Below, one piece after another: positions 5,603 through 48,968 of a DNA stretch of 51,148 bases (position 1 is its first letter; the number at the start of each line of letters is the position of its first letter). This DNA comes from a virus. Its lineage: Duplodnaviria > Caudoviricetes. Location: the IMG/VR virus record IMGVR_UViG_3300011116_001170, positions 1 to 51,148 of that record; one strand, given 5' to 3'. Position numbers and translations under genes: made by a program. The notes beneath the pieces were generated by a model that saw only the letters and a list, made by a program, of their open reading frames with translations, did no database searches and had not been told where the DNA came from.

Positions 5603-5983
5603 TCATTCCACCTCCGCCATAAAAAATTGTTTATTGTCTCGTTCAATAATTTTCCAATCTTTTTTGTGAGAATTTTCCCATCTTTGATGTTTCATATTAT
5701 ACCAAGCCCATGTGCCTGTTTTTTCAAAAATAGCTATAACTAAGCAAGAAAAAGGTAATTCTGGATTGATTGAAAATCCTGCATCGTAAAGTTGCGGCTC
5801 AAAAATATTCTCTGATTCAGTCGCAACGTAAATTTTTGTAATTTCAGGAGTCATGTTTTCATAAAAAATAAAATTATTTTCTTTCAGATCCGCTTCTATT
5901 TTTATTTCTGTTAAACATTTTACACCAAATTCTTTGTGCATGTAAATTGCCTTAATCGGGCAAGTGTAATAATATCTAGCCAT
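5603..5983 (-). CDS. hypothetical protein, paralogue of 5053-5490
   Basis: Same N- and C-terminal motifs with a divergent middle. Confidence 0.8.
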   Translation of the reverse strand: MARYYYTCPIKAIYMHKEFGVKCLTEIKIEADLKENNFIFYENMTPEITKIYVATESENIFEPQLYDAGFSINPELPFSCLVIAIFEKTGTWAWYNMKHQRWENSHKKDWKIIERDNKQFFMAEVE

Positions 5984-7197: not shown

Positions 7198-7261
7198 TGC
7201 ATGTTTGACATTAAATTAATTTCCACCACTCTCAATCTTTATTTCTAAAAGTCAAGAAAAA

Positions 7262-7500
7262 ATTGCCTTTTTACAGAAGACTAACTGACTAGAACACGAG
7301 CAGCTTTCTAGCCACGTAAAACATGAATAGAAAAGCAAAGAAATTGGCTTTCGGTGCGCGCGCACCTACTCGCCAAATTACAACTATGTTCTGGAAGTTG
7401 CCTCCGAGCTTGGTTGTGTAATGAGCTACCCAAGCTTCCCTCCTGTTTAACGACCGTCTAAGTCACGTCATTACCGAGTTATGCCTTCTTCTTTAGCCAG
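7262..7500 (-). ncRNA. structured ncRNA, scaffold-1 copy A
   Basis: Closing helix CTGGCTA/TAGTCAG, 3' hairpin GTCTT-CTGTAAA-AAGGC, internal AGUA/GAA loop-E motif; both ends shared with 47949-48141. Confidence 0.65.
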
Positions 7501-7543
7501 GCTGGCTTTCAATAGTGTCGAATTCGACACCTTTAGAATTTGG

Positions 7544-7617
7544 TGGAGCGAGGCAAGGGAATCGAACCCTTCGCTTTAGCTTGGAAGGCTAAGGTATTAC
7601 CACTATACGAGCCCCGC
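7544..7617 (-). tRNA. tRNA-Gly (UCC)
   Basis: GCGGGGC/GCCTCGC acceptor, TTAGC-CTTCCAA-GCTAA anticodon arm, GGTTCGATTCC T-arm, U73, encoded CCA with a second CCA at 7541-7543. Confidence 0.95.
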
Positions 7618-7620
7618 AAA

Positions 7621-7731
7621 AATATTCTCTAAAAACAACACCTCAAAAGTTATCAGCGATTCTTTTGCGACGCGGCTAGATGTTGTTGGACTTCATAACC
7701 TAACGCCGTGATGTTGCTTTTAGAAAATATT
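7621..7731 (-). ncRNA. long-stem ncRNA, scaffold-2 copy A
   Basis: 22-bp stem 7710-7731/7621-7642 whose three non-Watson-Crick pairs are all G-U on the - strand; outer arms identical to 47523-47718. Confidence 0.65.
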
Positions 7732-7853
7732 AAACGAAACCAGCGGGAGTTTGCTCGAGCCTCCCGCCGACCGACTAAGCCAGTTGCAACTAACTTAGCC
7801 CTAGCTCCATCACTTACGTTTAAAAGGAGAGGAATCGCTAGTCTATCTCTTAA

Positions 7854-8032
7854 GCTGATAATTTGAATAGTCCCTATCGTAGTGTGCCCTCTTTTTCTAT
7901 ACCACAAGCGAGGTGGCTCTATCTAAAAATTTATGCATGGTATTGATAAGCAATCGCTTTTAGACTTTCGGCTGTCGAAGCTTTTTCTAACGATAGCAAC
8001 GCGTTAAAAAATTCCGAATTCAAATTATCAAC
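7854..8032 (-). ncRNA. multi-branch structured RNA
   Basis: 15-bp closing stem GTTGATAATTTGAAT/ATTCAAATTATCAGC, inner CTATCGT/ACGATAG and ATACCAT/GTGGTAT helices, two TAGAAAAAG motifs. Confidence 0.55.
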
Positions 8033-8084
8033 GTTTTGAAACCCAAAAATCATGAAAAATCAGAGGAGTATCTTGGGCAATATT

Positions 8085-8163
8085 TTAAGCTGAAACGGTT
8101 GATTTTACAACATATCCCCGACTTTATGCCGATGGCTTTAATTAAGCTACTTTTTCAGCTTAA
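8085..8163 (-). ncRNA. degenerate tRNA-like cloverleaf
   Basis: TTAAGCTGAAA/TTTCAGCTTAA closing stem, TAGCTTAATTAAAGC D-arm-like, TCGGC-ATAAA-GTCGG arm, GTTG-TAAAAT-CAAC T-arm-like; no CCA. Confidence 0.45.
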
Positions 8164-8294
8164 TAAGTTGCCGCCCACTTTTCAATTCAGGCTCTGACGA
8201 ACCGACGGCAACTAATTAAAATGAAAGGGGCGGTGGATTAATGAAAAGAAACCACCGCCCAGCCGCATAAGGGCTACCCGAGGAAGGCTTTTTA

Positions 8295-8323
8295 ATTAAA
8301 AGAACTTAACTTTCCATTGTCAA
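8295..8323 (-). promoter_or_regulatory. sigma70-like promoter heading the RNA island
   Basis: TTGACA-N17-TTTAAT on the - strand immediately upstream of the first hairpins. Confidence 0.7.
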
Positions 8324-8334
8324 TAGTTTTTTTT

Positions 8335-45707: not shown

Positions 45708-46009
45708 TTAGTTTGTAATTTTTTCTTTAATTCTAATGGGCAGAAATTTATTTTAAATACCAGTTTATCGTTTTCAAATTTTATATCATAAATTTTTAGA
45801 ATAGGCGTAATCATCACGCCTCTTTGCCAAATACTATATTCCCAGTAATCTAAGAATCTTCTTTGGTGCATTTTAATTCCATGCCAGCGCAATTTTCCTT
45901 TTGTAATTTCACCTTTGATTTTTGCTATAAATACAGCGCATCTTATCAAATCAGATTTTAGCTCTTCTTGCATATTATGAATTTTATGAATGTCTTGTTT
46001 GTAGTCCAT
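45704..46009 (-). CDS. hypothetical protein
   Basis: 101-aa coupled ORF. Confidence 0.65.
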   Translation of the reverse strand: MDYKQDIHKIHNMQEELKSDLIRCAVFIAKIKGEITKGKLRWHGIKMHQRRFLDYWEYSIWQRGVMITPILKIYDIKFENDKLVFKINFCPLELKKKLQTK

Positions 46010-46566
46010 TATCTAATTTCCCCCCCGTTATCAATTAGTATCTGCAAATTTTTTCCTCTGTAATCGTCAACGTAATTTTTTTCTCCATCTTTATCGAGAC
46101 TAAAAACAACAAAATCTTTTTCGTCAATTGCGCCTTCTTGACAAACTTTAACTAGAGATTGAATCATTTCGCGCGAGTGAGTTGTAGCAAAAATTTGAAC
46201 ATCGTTTTCAATTGTTGCCGCAATAACATTAAGCCAAAAATCCTTCATAACGCTATGGTGCAAACCATTTTCAATTTCTTCAAATAAAAATATTTTTTCT
46301 TCTTTTTTAAAATAGTTCAAAACTAAATCGCGCGCTTGTGGCTTAAAACCAAGTTTTCTAAGGCTTCTATACTCCGAAACATCTTTGTAATATTCTTCAA
46401 AAATATCAGGAAAAATTACTTTGTTTTCATATTTTTTTTTTATGCTTTCAAGTATTGCGGTTTTTCCAGCTCCATTTTTACCAACCAGCAAATTAATGCG
46501 TTTGCAATCATTAATTTTTAGATCTTTAATGCTGTGATAATTTTGAATGTGAATGTCTTTAATCAT
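46009..46566 (-). CDS. miniature ABC/AAA_21-type ATPase, copy 1
   Basis: GKNGAGKT Walker A, FEEIENGLH Walker B/D-loop, TTHS H-loop; only about 55 aa between A and B. Confidence 0.85.
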   Translation of the reverse strand: MIKDIHIQNYHSIKDLKINDCKRINLLVGKNGAGKTAILESIKKKYENKVIFPDIFEEYYKDVSEYRSLRKLGFKPQARDLVLNYFKKEEKIFLFEEIENGLHHSVMKDFWLNVIAATIENDVQIFATTHSREMIQSLVKVCQEGAIDEKDFVVFSLDKDGEKNYVDDYRGKNLQILIDNGGEIR

Positions 46567-46718
46567 AAGCTTTTAGTTTTCTCATTAATTCTAATTTTTC
46601 TTTTTCAAAATCTGTTTCTAAAATTTGCTTCCACCCTTCATTTCGCTTTTTTACATCAAGCCGAGCAAGAGTAAGAACTTGTTTAACATTTTTCCCCTCA
46701 ACTTCGACTTGAGCATTG
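46499..46718. repeat. 220-bp direct repeat, copy 1
   Basis: Identical by eye to 47286-47505; spans a gene junction. Confidence 0.9.
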
Positions 46719-46792
46719 TTGTCAAAGTAATGGACCGTGATCTTGCGGTTAAGGCTGTCTTTGTAGTATTCGATTTTTGGATTTTTATTCAT
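46559..46792 (-). CDS. small partner protein
   Basis: 77 aa; C-terminal about 52 aa duplicated at 47346-47505. Confidence 0.7.
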   Translation of the reverse strand: MNKNPKIEYYKDSLNRKITVHYFDNNAQVEVEGKNVKQVLTLARLDVKKRNEGWKQILETDFEKEKLELMRKLKAYD

Positions 46793-47353
46793 TCATTTTT
46801 TCTCTATAAATTTACAAAATTGTTCCGAACTAAATTCTGTTATATTGTGTAAGCAGGGGTCACCATCACGCATATTTCTTCCTTCTTTAATAAGCTGATC
46901 AGTTGCCCACGATTCAAATTTCATTACACCATTTCCTTCTTCGTTTTTATGAAGCCGATAAACCCTAATTTCTTCTTGCTCAATAAGATTGGTTTCTTCC
47001 GCTGCTTTAACCAAAGCCTCCATCATCTCGTGAGAATGAGTTGTAGCAAAAATTTGAAAATTATTAGCTAACGCCATTTTAATAATGTAACGCCAAAAAT
47101 CCTTCATAACGCTATGATGCAAACCATTTTCAATTTCATCAAATAAAATAATTTTTGAATCTTGGTTTGTTTTAAAAGCTCTCCACGAAGAATAAAATGG
47201 CGCATATTCTTTGTGGTAAGATTGTTTTATAAATTCTAAAACTGTTGTTTTTCCAACTTCATTTTTCCCGACTAGTAAATTAATCCGTTTGCAATCATTA
47301 ATTTTTAGATCTTTAATGCTGTGATAATTTTGAATGTGAATGTCTTTAATCAT
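46793..47353 (-). CDS. miniature ABC/AAA_21-type ATPase, copy 2
   Basis: GKNEVGKT, FDEIENGLH, TTHS; only about 30 aa between Walker A and B. Confidence 0.85.
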   Translation of the reverse strand: MIKDIHIQNYHSIKDLKINDCKRINLLVGKNEVGKTTVLEFIKQSYHKEYAPFYSSWRAFKTNQDSKIILFDEIENGLHHSVMKDFWRYIIKMALANNFQIFATTHSHEMMEALVKAAEETNLIEQEEIRVYRLHKNEEGNGVMKFESWATDQLIKEGRNMRDGDPCLHNITEFSSEQFCKFIEKK

Positions 47354-47505
47354 AAGCTTTTAGTTTTCTCATTAATTCTAATTTTTCTTTTTCAAAATCT
47401 GTTTCTAAAATTTGCTTCCACCCTTCATTTCGCTTTTTTACATCAAGCCGAGCAAGAGTAAGAACTTGTTTAACATTTTTCCCCTCAACTTCGACTTGAG
47501 CATTG
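47286..47505. repeat. 220-bp direct repeat, copy 2
   Basis: Identical by eye to 46499-46718 (offset 787). Confidence 0.9.
47346..47505 (-). pseudogene. 5'-truncated copy of the small partner gene
   Basis: Same C-terminus as 46559-46792; the only start (TTG 47549) lies inside an RNA stem. Confidence 0.55.
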
Positions 47506-47522
47506 CCGTTAAAGTTTTTATT

Positions 47523-47718
47523 AATATTCTCTAAAAGCGGCACTGGCAAAGGACTTTCACCTTTGCATTTGCTTAGACAGCTTCACACTAGTATTATTGC
47601 CATCCACAAGAGTATTGCTTCTGTTTATCCTACTTTTTGCAGTTTTCGGATTGTGAGTCATCTTTCGAGCCTCTACATAGTGTCTTATTCCACCACAGTG
47701 CCGCCATTAGAAAATATT
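47523..47718 (-). ncRNA. tRNA-Leu-like RNA with about 110-nt insert, inside scaffold-2 copy B
   Basis: GCGGCACTG/CAGTGCCGC stem, TG-GTG-GAATAAGA-CAC D-arm-like, GCAAAGG-TGAAAGT-CCTTTGC T-arm-like, outer AATATTTTCTAA/TTAGAGAATATT. Confidence 0.65.
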
Positions 47719-47885
47719 GGTGGAAGGGGTAAGATTTTAACTTACTAAACCAAATCAATCTAAAATATTTAGGGTAATTAATCCAACATTTTAAACATGA
47801 TTAGCGGGTAATTAATCCGCTTACTGGTGATTTGCCTACTGGTCGACCGCTGACAAATTGGCATTAACACTCGCCCACCCTTACC
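47718..47885 (-). ncRNA. expanded type-II-tRNA-like RNA ending in ACCA
   Basis: GG(T)AAGGG/CCCTTCC acceptor, GGC/GCC D-stem, ATTTGTC/GGCAAAT stem, GTAAG-TTAAAAT-CTTAC T-arm, ACCA; giant variable region. Confidence 0.65.
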
Positions 47886-47887
47886 AT

Positions 47888-48142
47888 AAAAACGAAGCCA
47901 GAACGCGCCTAAACGACGCAATAACAAATGTGTCCTGACTTCGTAGATTTGCCTTTTTACAGAAAGGCTAACTGGCTAATCTTGAACTTACGAAAGCGAT
48001 GATCGTAATTAGCTTGCTCGTATCAGAGGTTTTGCATTCAATATCACTAGCAAAACGTAACCGCTTGATGATTGAAGCCCTTTCGGGCAATTTAACTAGC
48101 TCAACTTGCGTCGTCTAATATTTCTACACTCTTCTTTAGCCG
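47888..48142 (-). ncRNA. pseudoknotted ncRNA, scaffold-1 copy B, with terminator-like 3' hairpin
   Basis: GGCTAA/TTAGCC, GCCC-GAAA-GGGC, GTTTTGC/GCAAAAC, TTACGA/TCGTAA, 13-bp hairpin plus U-tract, 12-nt long-range complementarity. Confidence 0.7.
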
Positions 48143-48152
48143 TGCCGATTGA

Positions 48153-48968
48153 TTATTTGCCCAAAGGCAACATAATATTATTTCCGCCGCTAGTAATTAC
48201 AGTCGTTGGAGCTACACCATCCCATTTATCTGCAAATGCCGCATTTACTTCAACTTGTTTTAATTCAACAATTTTAGGATTGCTGGTAATTGCGTTAGCG
48301 GTAATTCTGATTGCTTCGGCATCAGCTTTTGATTTAATAATAGTTTGGTCGGCTTCTGCTTGAATTTGCTGCTTTTTAATTTCAGCAGTTTCGGCATCTT
48401 GTTTGGCAATTACTTTATTTTGAATTGATTGTTTCCACTGAGCATTTTCAAATTCAAAGCTAGTAATACTAATATCATCAATTACGGCTAAATGATTAAT
48501 TCTTTCAGCTAATCTTTCTTTGACATATTTGCTTACTTCCGATCGATTAGAAATAAGGTCTTCTGCTGAATATCTAGCCAAAGCATCTCTGATACTTTCG
48601 TTAGCTCTCGGTGCTATCAAAACTTGAAAAATATCACCTTTTATGGTTTTTAAATTATCAAGCACTTTGTCTTCTGGGATAGCGTAAAGAACTCGGTAAT
48701 TTACACTAACTGGTTGCAAATCTTTGGTTTGAGTTCCATTTAATTGAAAAGTTTCTTGATGTTGTCTTAAAGAGAAAATTTCGATAGTTTGAAAAAATGG
48801 TAATTTAAAATGAATTCCTTCTTCTAAAACAGAATTATGGATTACGCCCGCTGTTTTTCTAATCCCTACTTCAGAAGTTTTAATGATGCTAAATGTTGAT
48901 AAAAAAACAATTATACCAATGATAAGCTTTAACAATTTGTAGCGATTTTTTATGATTTGCATGAACAT
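48153..48968 (-). CDS. SPFH/prohibitin (band 7) protein
   Basis: N-terminal TM, EGIHFKLPF, TKDLQ.V, KWDG. Confidence 0.92.
   Translation of the reverse strand: MFMQIIKNRYKLLKLIIGIIVFLSTFSIIKTSEVGIRKTAGVIHNSVLEEGIHFKLPFFQTIEIFSLRQHQETFQLNGTQTKDLQPVSVNYRVLYAIPEDKVLDNLKTIKGDIFQVLIAPRANESIRDALARYSAEDLISNRSEVSKYVKERLAERINHLAVIDDISITSFEFENAQWKQSIQNKVIAKQDAETAEIKKQQIQAEADQTIIKSKADAEAIRITANAITSNPKIVELKQVEVNAAFADKWDGVAPTTVITSGGNNIMLPLGK

What the first reader, a model, noticed from the sequence alone, without database searches (positions are those of the whole stretch)
47523..47718. tRNA-Leu-shaped RNA with the anticodon arm replaced by a roughly 110-nt domain
Seen: a 9-bp acceptor-like stem, TGGTGGAATAAGACAC resembling the tRNA-Leu D-arm, a 7-bp T-arm with TGAAAGT loop, and an insert with TAGA/TCTA, TCACA/TGTGA and ATCC/GGAT helices; no CCA. 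Inference: a tRNA elbow used as a stabilising chassis for a cargo domain, as in tmRNA or Y RNA but matching neither by eye.
Basis: partly seen in the sequence, partly recalled or inferred. Interest (0 to 1): 0.7.

Follow-up and report, generated by a model that had tools for sequence, protein, structure and literature searches.

The report
tRNA-Leu-derived phage RNA with swappable insert
A freshwater phage carries a small RNA gene built on the frame of a leucine tRNA, in which the anticodon region is replaced by an insert that differs completely between related phages, much like the tRNA scaffold that engineers use to stabilise RNAs.

Summary
The feature is real and lies on the minus strand of a complete 51-kb phage record. 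A 22-bp closing helix encloses a tRNA-Leu-type D arm, a 113-nt insert and a 7-bp T arm. There is no CCA.

I found 12 relatives in IMG/VR phage contigs, so 13 members in all. They share this frame. On a model-fitted alignment, 96.5% of cells are paired and 12 of 29 pairs show compensatory changes (0 of 500 shuffles reach either value). They carry eight unrelated insert classes of 53-145 nt.

Three relatives keep the canonical tRNA-Leu D loop. All 13 have G at T-loop position 55, where the true tRNAs beside them have U. In most relatives the element sits in a tRNA/ncRNA operon.

ARAGORN (including intron and tmRNA modes) of 13, and no Rfam family matches. The phage has no Ro60, reverse transcriptase or integrase.

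Best reading: a tRNA-derived frame carrying exchangeable effector inserts. The function is untested. The main rival is a tRNA-mimic decoy. I rate it a new variant of the tRNA-like ncRNA kind.

The parts
47523..47718 (-). Whole helix-closed tRNA-Leu-like RNA unit (element A), 196 nt
   Evidence: MFE z -5.57. It scores 107.4 bits, E 1.9e-18, against family model R1 with filters off.
47707..47718 (-). Outer A/U-rich helix, 5' strand (12 nt)
   Evidence: Pairs with 47523-47534 in the MFE. The same 12-bp outer helix closes a second cassette at 7621-7731.
47696..47705 (-). Acceptor-like stem, 5' strand (10 nt)
   Evidence: 10 contiguous pairs with 47536-47545. Four different acceptor sequences across the family are all complementary. 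5 of 7 inner pairs show changes on both sides.
47680..47693 (-). D arm: 3-bp stem with 8-nt loop, tRNA-Leu (type II) type
   Evidence: The stem is GUG/CAC here and GCG/CGC in 9 relatives, a compensatory change (L021: GCG/CGA). L008, L021 and L030 keep the canonical 11-nt loop.
47567..47679 (-). Insert ('cargo'), 113 nt, in place of the anticodon and variable arms
   Evidence: Unique to this phage among the 13 members. Folded alone it gives z +0.52. A lake metatranscriptome contig has the same frame with 105 other letters at this position.
47546..47566 (-). T arm: 7-bp stem with 7-nt loop UGAAAGU
   Evidence: The T stem is 6-7 bp in 13 of 13 members, with 4 of 6 modelled pairs changed on both sides. 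The loop is U-G-N-R-A-N-U in 13 of 13.
47536..47545 (-). Acceptor-like stem, 3' strand; no CCA follows
47523..47534 (-). Outer A/U-rich helix, 3' strand
   Evidence: The 3' flank was not required by the search pattern, yet it is complementary in 13 of 13 members.

Best explanation
Element A belongs to a small, undescribed family of phage non-coding RNAs that descend from a tRNA-Leu gene.

**Shown**
- The RNA keeps the acceptor helix, lengthened to 10-14 bp and extended by an A/U-rich outer helix to about 22 bp.
- It keeps the type II D arm and a 6-7-bp T arm.
- It has lost the anticodon stem-loop, the CCA end and U55.
- Between the D and T arms it carries an insert that is exchanged as a module between phages.
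- In most relatives it lies in the same orientation and spacing as true tRNAs, inside a promoter-to-terminator tRNA/ncRNA operon.

**Inferred mechanism**
- The RNA is transcribed as part of such a polycistronic transcript.
- The long closing helix, shared with non-tRNA cassettes of the same operons, serves as the release and protection signal. An RNase III-type cut is my guess, because true tRNAs in these operons lack this helix.
- The compact tRNA-like body then acts as a folding and stability frame that presents the lineage-specific insert, which is the effector part.
- Recombination within the about 40-nt conserved frame arms lets phages swap inserts. This phage encodes YqaJ exonuclease and RecT.

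What the inserts bind or regulate is unknown.
For: **Structure**
- z -5.57 for the whole unit.
- On the 13-member model-fitted alignment A6, 96.5% of 371 cells are paired against 90.7 +/- 0.6 in shuffles. 12 of 29 pairs change on both sides against 4.6 +/- 1.3. 0 of 500 shuffles reach either value. Slid controls give 40-46% paired.

**tRNA-Leu descent**
- L008, L021 and L030 carry the canonical D loop.
- Among the five members with an 11-nt D loop, the position-19 equivalent and T-loop position 56 read G with C in 4 and U with A in 1 (L032).

**Modularity**
- 8 insert classes show no similarity to each other (z at most about 4), while within-class z is 22-59.
- One acceptor sequence carries 4 insert classes (b, c, L009, L021; L009's 3' strand differs at one base); L016 carries a fifth on a 3-nt-longer variant.
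- Identical 109-nt inserts in L002 and L025 sit on frames with different D and T loops.

**Inserts under selection in two classes**
- Class b shows a compensatory change between L002 and L033. Class c shows C-G to A-U in L030. I read both directly from the sequences.

**Operon context**
- tRNAs lie immediately upstream in L002, L008, L009, L016, L021, L025, L033 and L038.
- TTGACA-17-TATAAT promoters are visible in the sequence.

**Expression hint**
- One RNA-library contig (X14, 344 nt) holds the window-type frame with another insert.

**Closing helix is shared by non-tRNA cassettes**
- Window 7621-7731 and cassettes in L007, L008 and L010.

**Recombination genes**
- YqaJ and RecT.
Against: - The window's insert, and 4 of the 9 other inserts folded, fold no better than shuffles. 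A structured effector is therefore not shown for this copy.
- The window insert has no antisense target in the phage beyond chance: longest match 12 nt, while shuffles give 10-14.
- Transcription of the window's own copy is not shown. No promoter-like site was found on the minus strand in 47300-48300.
- The RNA contigs come from relatives, and RNA libraries can contain DNA.
- Processing enzymes, RNA ends and stability were not tested.
- Members were found with a pattern that required the 5' flank and the D-arm motif. Conservation of those two parts is therefore partly ascertainment. This is offset by a second pattern that did not require them.
- The alignment used for pair counts was fitted to the model structure.
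Confidence: 0.5

Rival explanations
1. tRNA-mimic decoy. The active part is the tRNA-Leu-like body. It binds a host or phage protein that recognises tRNA shape, for example a tRNA-targeting defence nuclease, LeuRS or a modification enzyme. Loss of the anticodon loop, CCA and U55 keeps it out of translation and out of reach of cleavage. The inserts are tolerated filler.
For: - The frame is the conserved, covarying part.
- G55 is fixed in 13 of 13 members, while neighbouring true tRNAs have U55.
- The anticodon loop is removed.
- Half of the inserts tested show no fold beyond chance.
- In this window the element is followed by two half-size AbiLi/AriA-like ATPase genes, which are defence-type proteins.
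- From recall, no call: bacterial LeuRS does not need the anticodon.
Against: - Filler would be expected to shrink or drift. Instead inserts are 53-145 nt, fall into discrete unrelated classes, and two classes are conserved with compensatory changes.
- The elbow pair G19-C56 is lost in most members.
- The long closing helix buries the acceptor end.
- No binding partner is identified.
Confidence: 0.25
2. Decaying pseudogene. A phage tRNA-Leu gene was disrupted by insertions and has no function of its own. It is kept only by linkage within the operon.
For: - No tRNA model recognises it.
- The D loop is eroded in 10 of 13 members.
- L030 has a degraded 5' acceptor strand, with only 5 contiguous pairs.
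- The window insert is structureless by energy.
Against: - Compensatory changes keep the acceptor, D and T helices in two phage groups with different gene neighbourhoods.
- G55 and the complementary outer helix are kept in 13 of 13 members.
- 12 of 13 members keep 10-14 contiguous acceptor pairs.
Confidence: 0.1
3. DNA-level element. The inverted flanks mark a mobile or recombination cassette (MITE-like, or an attachment site derived from a tRNA gene), and the RNA fold is incidental.
For: - In this window the unit sits outside the tRNA operon and abuts the end of a 294-nt duplicated segment (47222-47515, 93% identical to 46435-46728).
- Two cassettes in the genome share the same 12-bp flanks.
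- Inserts appear to be exchanged by recombination.
Against: - No tyrosine integrase was found and no reverse transcriptase.
- The internal D and T hairpins covary, which a DNA site does not require.
- The units always lie in the transcription direction of the operon.
- GC rises to 0.40-0.42 over the non-coding stretch, against about 0.28-0.33 in the flanking genes, as in structured RNA of A/T-rich genomes.
Confidence: 0.07
4. Intron-bearing tRNA-Leu that is spliced to a working tRNA.
For: - The D arm is of tRNA-Leu type.
- Class c inserts start with a hairpin whose loop contains UAG or UAA, both Leu anticodon triplets (read).
Against: - ARAGORN intron mode of 13. At an 80% threshold it of 13 with 6 different isotypes, one of them on the opposite strand.
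- There is no group I intron or any other Rfam match.
- There is no CCA although neighbouring tRNAs encode it.
- G55 is fixed, the T stem is 6-7 bp and the acceptor helix is 10-14 bp.
Confidence: 0.03

Closest known systems
tmRNA (tRNA-like domain plus inserted functional domain)
   Same: The topology matches. The 5' and 3' ends pair as the acceptor helix, there is a reduced D region and a T arm, and a large domain sits where the anticodon arm would be.
   Different: - There is no CCA and no recognisable tag reading frame.
- Position 55 is G, and the acceptor end is buried in a 22-bp helix.
- ARAGORN tmRNA mode of 13, and there is no Rfam tmRNA match.
- The insert differs between relatives, whereas tmRNA's is conserved (the latter from recall).
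Bacterial Y RNAs with a tRNA-like domain (YrlA, D. radiodurans Yrn1)
   Same: These are non-coding RNAs with tRNA-like D and T arms and a long terminal helix. They also occur in phages (PMC4201824, passages read). Yrn1 has the stem-loop between the arms at the anticodon position, as here.
   Different: - In YrlA the closed stem-loop is the acceptor and the ends lie on the anticodon side.
- The YrlA model gives no match on element A; only sub-threshold matches fall on true tRNAs nearby.
- This phage has no Ro60/TROVE gene.
- Pseudouridine at position 55 is impossible with G55.
Phage T4 RNAC and RNAD (small stable RNAs of the T4 tRNA region)
   Same: They are small RNAs of unknown role transcribed from a phage tRNA gene cluster (PMC3014915, one passage read).
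   Different: I did not compare sequence or structure. No T4 sequence was fetched, and the 'phages' collection gave no DNA match to the window element.
Engineered tRNA scaffold for recombinant RNA
   Same: An RNA of interest replaces the anticodon region of a tRNA, so that the tRNA body gives folding and stability in vivo (PMC3753655 and PMC3401473, search listing and abstracts only).
   Different: - That is a man-made design that relies on normal tRNA processing and ends.
- Here the frame is natural, lacks CCA and U55, and is closed by a long extra helix.
- Stabilisation is inferred, not measured.

Membership tests
tRNA (functional tRNA-Leu) | Recognised by tRNA gene models | tested here: not met
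   ARAGORN finds nothing on the window element and 0 of 13 members in default and intron modes. Rfam tRNA gives no match at E up to 10 over 47000-48300.
tRNA (functional tRNA-Leu) | 7-bp acceptor plus 5-bp T stem, and a 7-nt anticodon loop on a 5-bp stem | tested here: not met
   The acceptor is 10-14 bp and the T stem 6-7 bp. No canonical anticodon arm is present.
tRNA (functional tRNA-Leu) | T loop U54-U55-C56 and a 3' CCA (encoded in the neighbouring tRNAs) | tested here: not met
   G55 in 13 of 13 members. C56 in 6 of 13. No CCA.
tRNA (functional tRNA-Leu) | Type II D arm (3-bp stem, loop GAAU..GG..AGA) | tested here: met
   The 3-bp D stem is canonical in 12 of 13 (L021 ends CGA). The full canonical loop is present in L008, L021 and L030 and shortened in the window.
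tmRNA | tRNA-Ala-like acceptor with CCA, a tag reading frame, recognised by tmRNA models | tested here: not met
   ARAGORN -m of 13. No Rfam match.
Y RNA-like (YrlA, RF02553) | Match to the family model and linkage to a Ro60/TROVE gene | tested here: not met
   No YrlA match on the element. TROVE is absent from the phage record, and the control rings in 2 known genomes. A host-encoded Ro60 cannot be excluded.
Group I intron in tRNA-Leu | Group I intron core recognised by Rfam; exons that join to a canonical tRNA | tested here: not met
   No intron family match in the window or in 13 loci. Intron-mode ARAGORN of 13.
Retron ncRNA (msr-msd) | Flanking inverted repeats next to a reverse transcriptase gene | tested here: not met
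   Inverted flanks are present, but RVT_1 has no match in the record.
Phage T4 RNAC/RNAD-type stable RNAs | Sequence or structure likeness to the T4 RNAs | not tested
   Only the shared context (a phage tRNA cluster) is known, from PMC3014915.

The most novel reading that the evidence does not exclude
Phages of this group run a natural 'tRNA-scaffold' system. A tRNA-Leu-derived frame has been disabled for translation (no CCA, G55, no anticodon) and is closed by a processing helix. It serves as a standard socket into which unrelated effector RNA modules are recombined and traded between phages. The eight insert classes would then be eight different, still unknown RNA functions, possibly counter-defence or host-takeover RNAs.
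Probability: 0.3. Interest if true: 0.8.

Novelty: new variant of a known kind. Interest (0 to 1): 0.62.

Why it matters
- tRNA-like non-coding RNAs are known (tmRNA, Y RNAs, viral tRNA-like structures). A conserved tRNA-derived frame that carries interchangeable, unrelated inserts has not turned up in Rfam 15. It also did not turn up in six full-text searches.
- If the frame stabilises or delivers its insert, nature has arrived at the same solution as the engineered tRNA scaffold, and the inserts are a pool of unexplored phage effector RNAs.
- The surrounding operons hold several other unclassified structured RNAs. These freshwater and marine phages are therefore a compact place to study phage RNA biology.
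- The 10,006 candidate viral RNAs of PMC10690425 may include this family. Their list is in supplements that I could not open.

Tried and rejected
**Searches that found nothing or nothing useful**
- blastn of 47400-47900 against 50,697 phage records: no match.
- The search for related loci with the downstream ATPase: no relative.
- Two D-arm plus T-loop patterns in viral contigs found only L002.
- The window-type flank plus acceptor 20-mer found 0 other viral contigs.
- The element B pattern found 0 hits in genome contigs.
Screened by script, none has the closing helix plus T hairpin. They are ordinary or tandem tRNA-Leu genes or chance 7-mers. No host was identified.
- TerL is at most 38.6% identical to any named phage.

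**Tool behaviour**
- The covariance model with default filters missed the window copy and L038. With filters off it found all 13.

**Tests of the window insert**
- Antisense search against the phage genome: nothing above chance.
- A 34-aa ORF inside the insert (47557-47661, minus strand) is not conserved in any relative, and I take it as chance.

**Possible protein partners**
- The 87-89-aa ORF that follows the element in L008 and L033 has no Pfam match and no homologue in the window.
- PADLOC and Pfam on neighbouring genes give no RNA-processing enzyme among the 30 window proteins scanned against Pfam.

**Sequencing runs**
- Parts of the stretch without cover in the RNA contigs say nothing.

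**Closed or failed calls**
- One paper search failed on a term that was too short.

**Hypotheses rejected.** Retron, Y RNA, tmRNA, intron-bearing tRNA and attP readings are rejected for the reasons given in the membership test.

Full report
**What the window is.** The window is a whole IMG/VR virus record of 51,148 bp, which CheckV rates 100% complete.
- Structural genes lie on the plus strand and early genes on the minus strand. The early genes include YqaJ exonuclease, RecT, dUTPase and a methyltransferase.
- Its large terminase is at most 38.6% identical to any named phage, so the host is unknown.
- Near-identical DNA occurs in a viral metagenome and in riverine metagenomes. I laid one riverine run, and its contigs match without differences.

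**The observation.** Read 5' to 3', 47718 to 47523 gives, in order:
- a 12-nt A/U-rich strand, one unpaired U, and a 10-nt acceptor-like strand;
- UG, then a 3-bp D stem with an 8-nt loop;
- a 113-nt insert;
- a 7-bp T stem with loop UGAAAGU;
- the 10-nt complementary acceptor strand, one U, and the 12-nt complementary outer strand.

The whole unit folds at -61.7 kcal/mol against -41.65 +/- 3.6 for dinucleotide shuffles (z -5.57). No CCA follows. ARAGORN and Rfam report only two ordinary tRNAs elsewhere in the window. A permissive Rfam scan of 47000-48300 gives four matches, all far below threshold (E 3.6-7.6). The stem is 10 bp, or 22 bp with the extension, rather than 9.

**The insert.** But the insert alone is no more stable than shuffles (z +0.52; 141 of 200 shuffles fold as well). 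No relative has the same insert. They are therefore unsupported.

**Relatives.**
- A D-arm plus T-loop pattern found one viral contig, L002. There the same D and T arms are closed by a different, fully complementary acceptor helix and enclose an unrelated insert.
- A neighbouring conserved RNA (element B, window 47950-48157, minus strand) led to further operons in viral and metagenome contigs.
- A pattern of 5' flank plus D motif returned 27 viral stretches, 12 of them family members.
- With the window that makes 13 members. Metagenome loci L012 and L015 duplicate L008 and L009.
- That pattern forces the 5' flank and the D motif, so I ran a second pattern built only from the T loop, the 3' acceptor start and the 3' flank. 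Of 90 matches, 9 passed a T-stem and acceptor-helix test. Eight were known members, all with the D arm, and one looks like chance.
- In IMG/VR the family is therefore small, and the D arm, T arm and closing helix go together.

**The frame is conserved as structure.**
- 12 of 13 members have 10-14 contiguous acceptor pairs. L030 has 5.
- All 13 have a 6-7-bp T stem and a loop reading U-G-N-R-A-N-U.
- The D stem alternates between GUG/CAC and GCG/CGC (L021: GCG/CGA).
- A covariance model, run with filters off, aligned all 13 members. On that alignment 96.5% of 371 cells are paired against 90.7 +/- 0.6 in shuffles. 12 of 29 pairs change on both sides against 4.6 +/- 1.3. 0 of 500 shuffles reach either value, and sliding partners by 1-3 columns gives 40-46% paired.
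- Two caveats apply. The alignment is fitted to the model. Five 'unpaired' cells at each of two T-stem pairs are a register artefact of 7-bp against 6-bp stems.

**It descends from tRNA-Leu but is not a tRNA.**
- L008, L021 and L030 carry the canonical type II D arm with the GG dinucleotide. Other members have 2-3-nt deletions there.
- Among the five members with an 11-nt D loop, the position-19 equivalent and T-loop position 56 read G with C four times and U with A once (L032). This hints that the elbow pair was once selected. It rests on one event only.
- Against tRNA function: G at position 55 in 13 of 13, whereas the true tRNAs beside them have U.
- No CCA, although the four neighbouring tRNAs I read all encode it.
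- There is no canonical anticodon arm, and the acceptor and T stems are over-long.
- ARAGORN of 13 in default, tmRNA and intron modes. At an 80% threshold it gives 8 of 13 calls with inconsistent isotypes, one on the wrong strand.
- No locus fetched contains a called tRNA-Leu.

**The inserts are modules.**
- Pairwise local alignment sorts the 13 inserts (53-145 nt) into eight classes: window; b (L002, L025, L033); c (L006, L008, L030, L038); and L009, L016, L019, L021, L032 singly. Within-class z is 22-59 and between-class z is at most about 4.
- One acceptor sequence carries classes b, c, L009 and L021 (L009's 3' strand differs at one base). Conversely, the identical class b insert sits on frames with different D and T loops.
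- Classes b and c each show a compensatory change inside the insert (read).
- By energy alone only L033 is clearly structured (z -4.84). L038, L019, L002 and L032 are modest (-1.8 to -2.6). The window, L008, L009, L016 and L021 are near zero.
- In 1.9 Mb of loci held, inserts occur only inside the frame.
- A 344-nt contig of a lake metatranscriptome (X14) has the window-type flanks, acceptor and D arm with 105 other letters in place of the window's 130. This looks like a ninth insert, and it is a hint of expression, not proof.

**Context.**
- In most relatives the element lies in an operon that starts at a consensus TTGACA-17-TATAAT promoter and ends with element B and its terminator-like hairpin. 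Between these lie true tRNAs (Met, Arg, Asn, Trp, Pro, Ser) and several other unclassified structured RNAs.
- Non-tRNA cassettes of these operons share the A/U-rich closing helix. True tRNAs do not.
- The window holds a second such cassette (7621-7731, minus strand; 22-bp closing helix with the same 12 outer pairs; z -6.66) directly upstream of tRNA-Gly.
- L019 and L032 are a more distant phage group with other neighbours, but they have the same frame.
- In the window, elements B and A lie apart from the tRNA operon, between an SPFH-family gene and a tandem pair of small-ORF plus half-size AbiLi-like ATPase modules.
- In the metatranscriptome relatives, B and A are joined by a 28-nt palindromic hairpin instead of window 47720-47948.

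**Known systems excluded.**
- No Rfam family matches the element or any insert in the window or in 13 loci.
- The phage has no TROVE/Ro60 gene, no reverse transcriptase and no tyrosine integrase.
- YrlA has the opposite topology, and only D. radiodurans Yrn1 resembles this one (PMC4201824, passages).
- T4 RNAC and RNAD are the nearest contextual precedent: small RNAs of unknown role from a phage tRNA cluster (PMC3014915, passage).
- Six full-text searches found no description of such a family.
- The viral csRNA catalogue of PMC10690425 mentions tRNA-like candidates (passages), but its lists are in supplements that I could not read.

**Mechanism.**
- Shown: a conserved, covarying tRNA-Leu-derived frame without the features needed for translation; exchangeable inserts; placement in a tRNA/ncRNA operon; a closing helix shared with non-tRNA cassettes.
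- Inferred: the helix is the release and protection signal, and I guess an RNase III-type enzyme because only non-tRNA cassettes carry it. The tRNA-like body gives a stable fold. The insert is the effector. Recombination in the frame arms, helped by phage RecT/YqaJ, trades inserts.
- I put 0.5 on this reading, 0.25 on a tRNA-mimic decoy in which the frame is the active part, 0.1 on a functionless pseudogene, 0.07 on a DNA-level cassette and 0.03 on a spliced tRNA.

**Verdict.** This is a real, rare and apparently undescribed phage RNA family. It is a new variant of the tRNA-like ncRNA kind. Interest 0.62.

Noticed in passing
window 47950-48157 (-): Element B is a roughly 200-nt conserved structured RNA that ends the tRNA/ncRNA operons of relatives. 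I found 9 distinct sequences. 53 pairs are predicted, 11 of them with compensatory changes. It has no Rfam match. RNA-library contigs of three lake metatranscriptome runs cover 47949-48109/48142.
   Followed up: partly
window 7621-7731 (-): A second helix-closed cassette lies directly 5' of tRNA-Gly. It has the same 12-bp outer helix as element A and a 22-bp closing stem, with z -6.66. Its interior is not tRNA-like.
   Followed up: partly
window about 7260-8330 (-): About 1.1 kb of non-coding sequence looks like the phage's main ncRNA operon. It has a TTGACA-type promoter, several GC-rich structured stretches, the cassette above and tRNA-Gly. A further RNA begins with the GGCTAAAGAAGAAGGCA-type boundary hairpin and ends in the same terminator-like hairpin as element B. 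Only the tRNA matches Rfam.
   Followed up: partly
window 47772-47784 and 47806-47818 (+): Two exact copies of a 13-nt near-palindrome (GGGTAATTAATCC) lie 34 nt apart in the spacer between elements B and A. They look like operator sites. In metatranscriptome relatives this whole spacer is replaced by a 28-nt hairpin.
   Followed up: no
window 46009-47549 (-): There is a tandem duplicate of a two-gene module: a 77-aa ORF plus a 185/186-aa ATPase. The ATPases match only the N- and C-terminal parts of AbiLi, PDC-M38A and AriA profiles (E about 1e-34), so they are half-size defence-type ATPases in a phage. A 294-nt repeat (93% identical) ends at 47515, next to element A. The upstream small-ORF copy has no ATG, and its only start (TTG at 47549) lies inside A's T stem, 3' strand.
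   Followed up: partly
L012 about 5732-5804 (+): Another tRNA-like gene that ARAGORN does not call. It has an acceptor stem with encoded CCA and a T arm with the same UGCAAAU loop (G55). A 7-bp stem capped by GAAA stands where the anticodon arm should be.
   Followed up: no
L007 2066-2240 (+); L013 4323-4497: A different 175-nt cassette has the same flanks, a 10-bp acceptor-like helix and a 5-bp T arm with loop UUUAAAU, but another D region and insert. It matches model R1 weakly (46.5 and 34.4 bits).
   Followed up: no
L008 4785-5048; L033 7950-8219 (also seen in L012 and L021): A conserved 87-89-aa ORF of no known family is inserted in the ncRNA operon directly after the tRNA-like element. 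It occurs in phages carrying three different insert classes and is absent from the window.
   Followed up: partly
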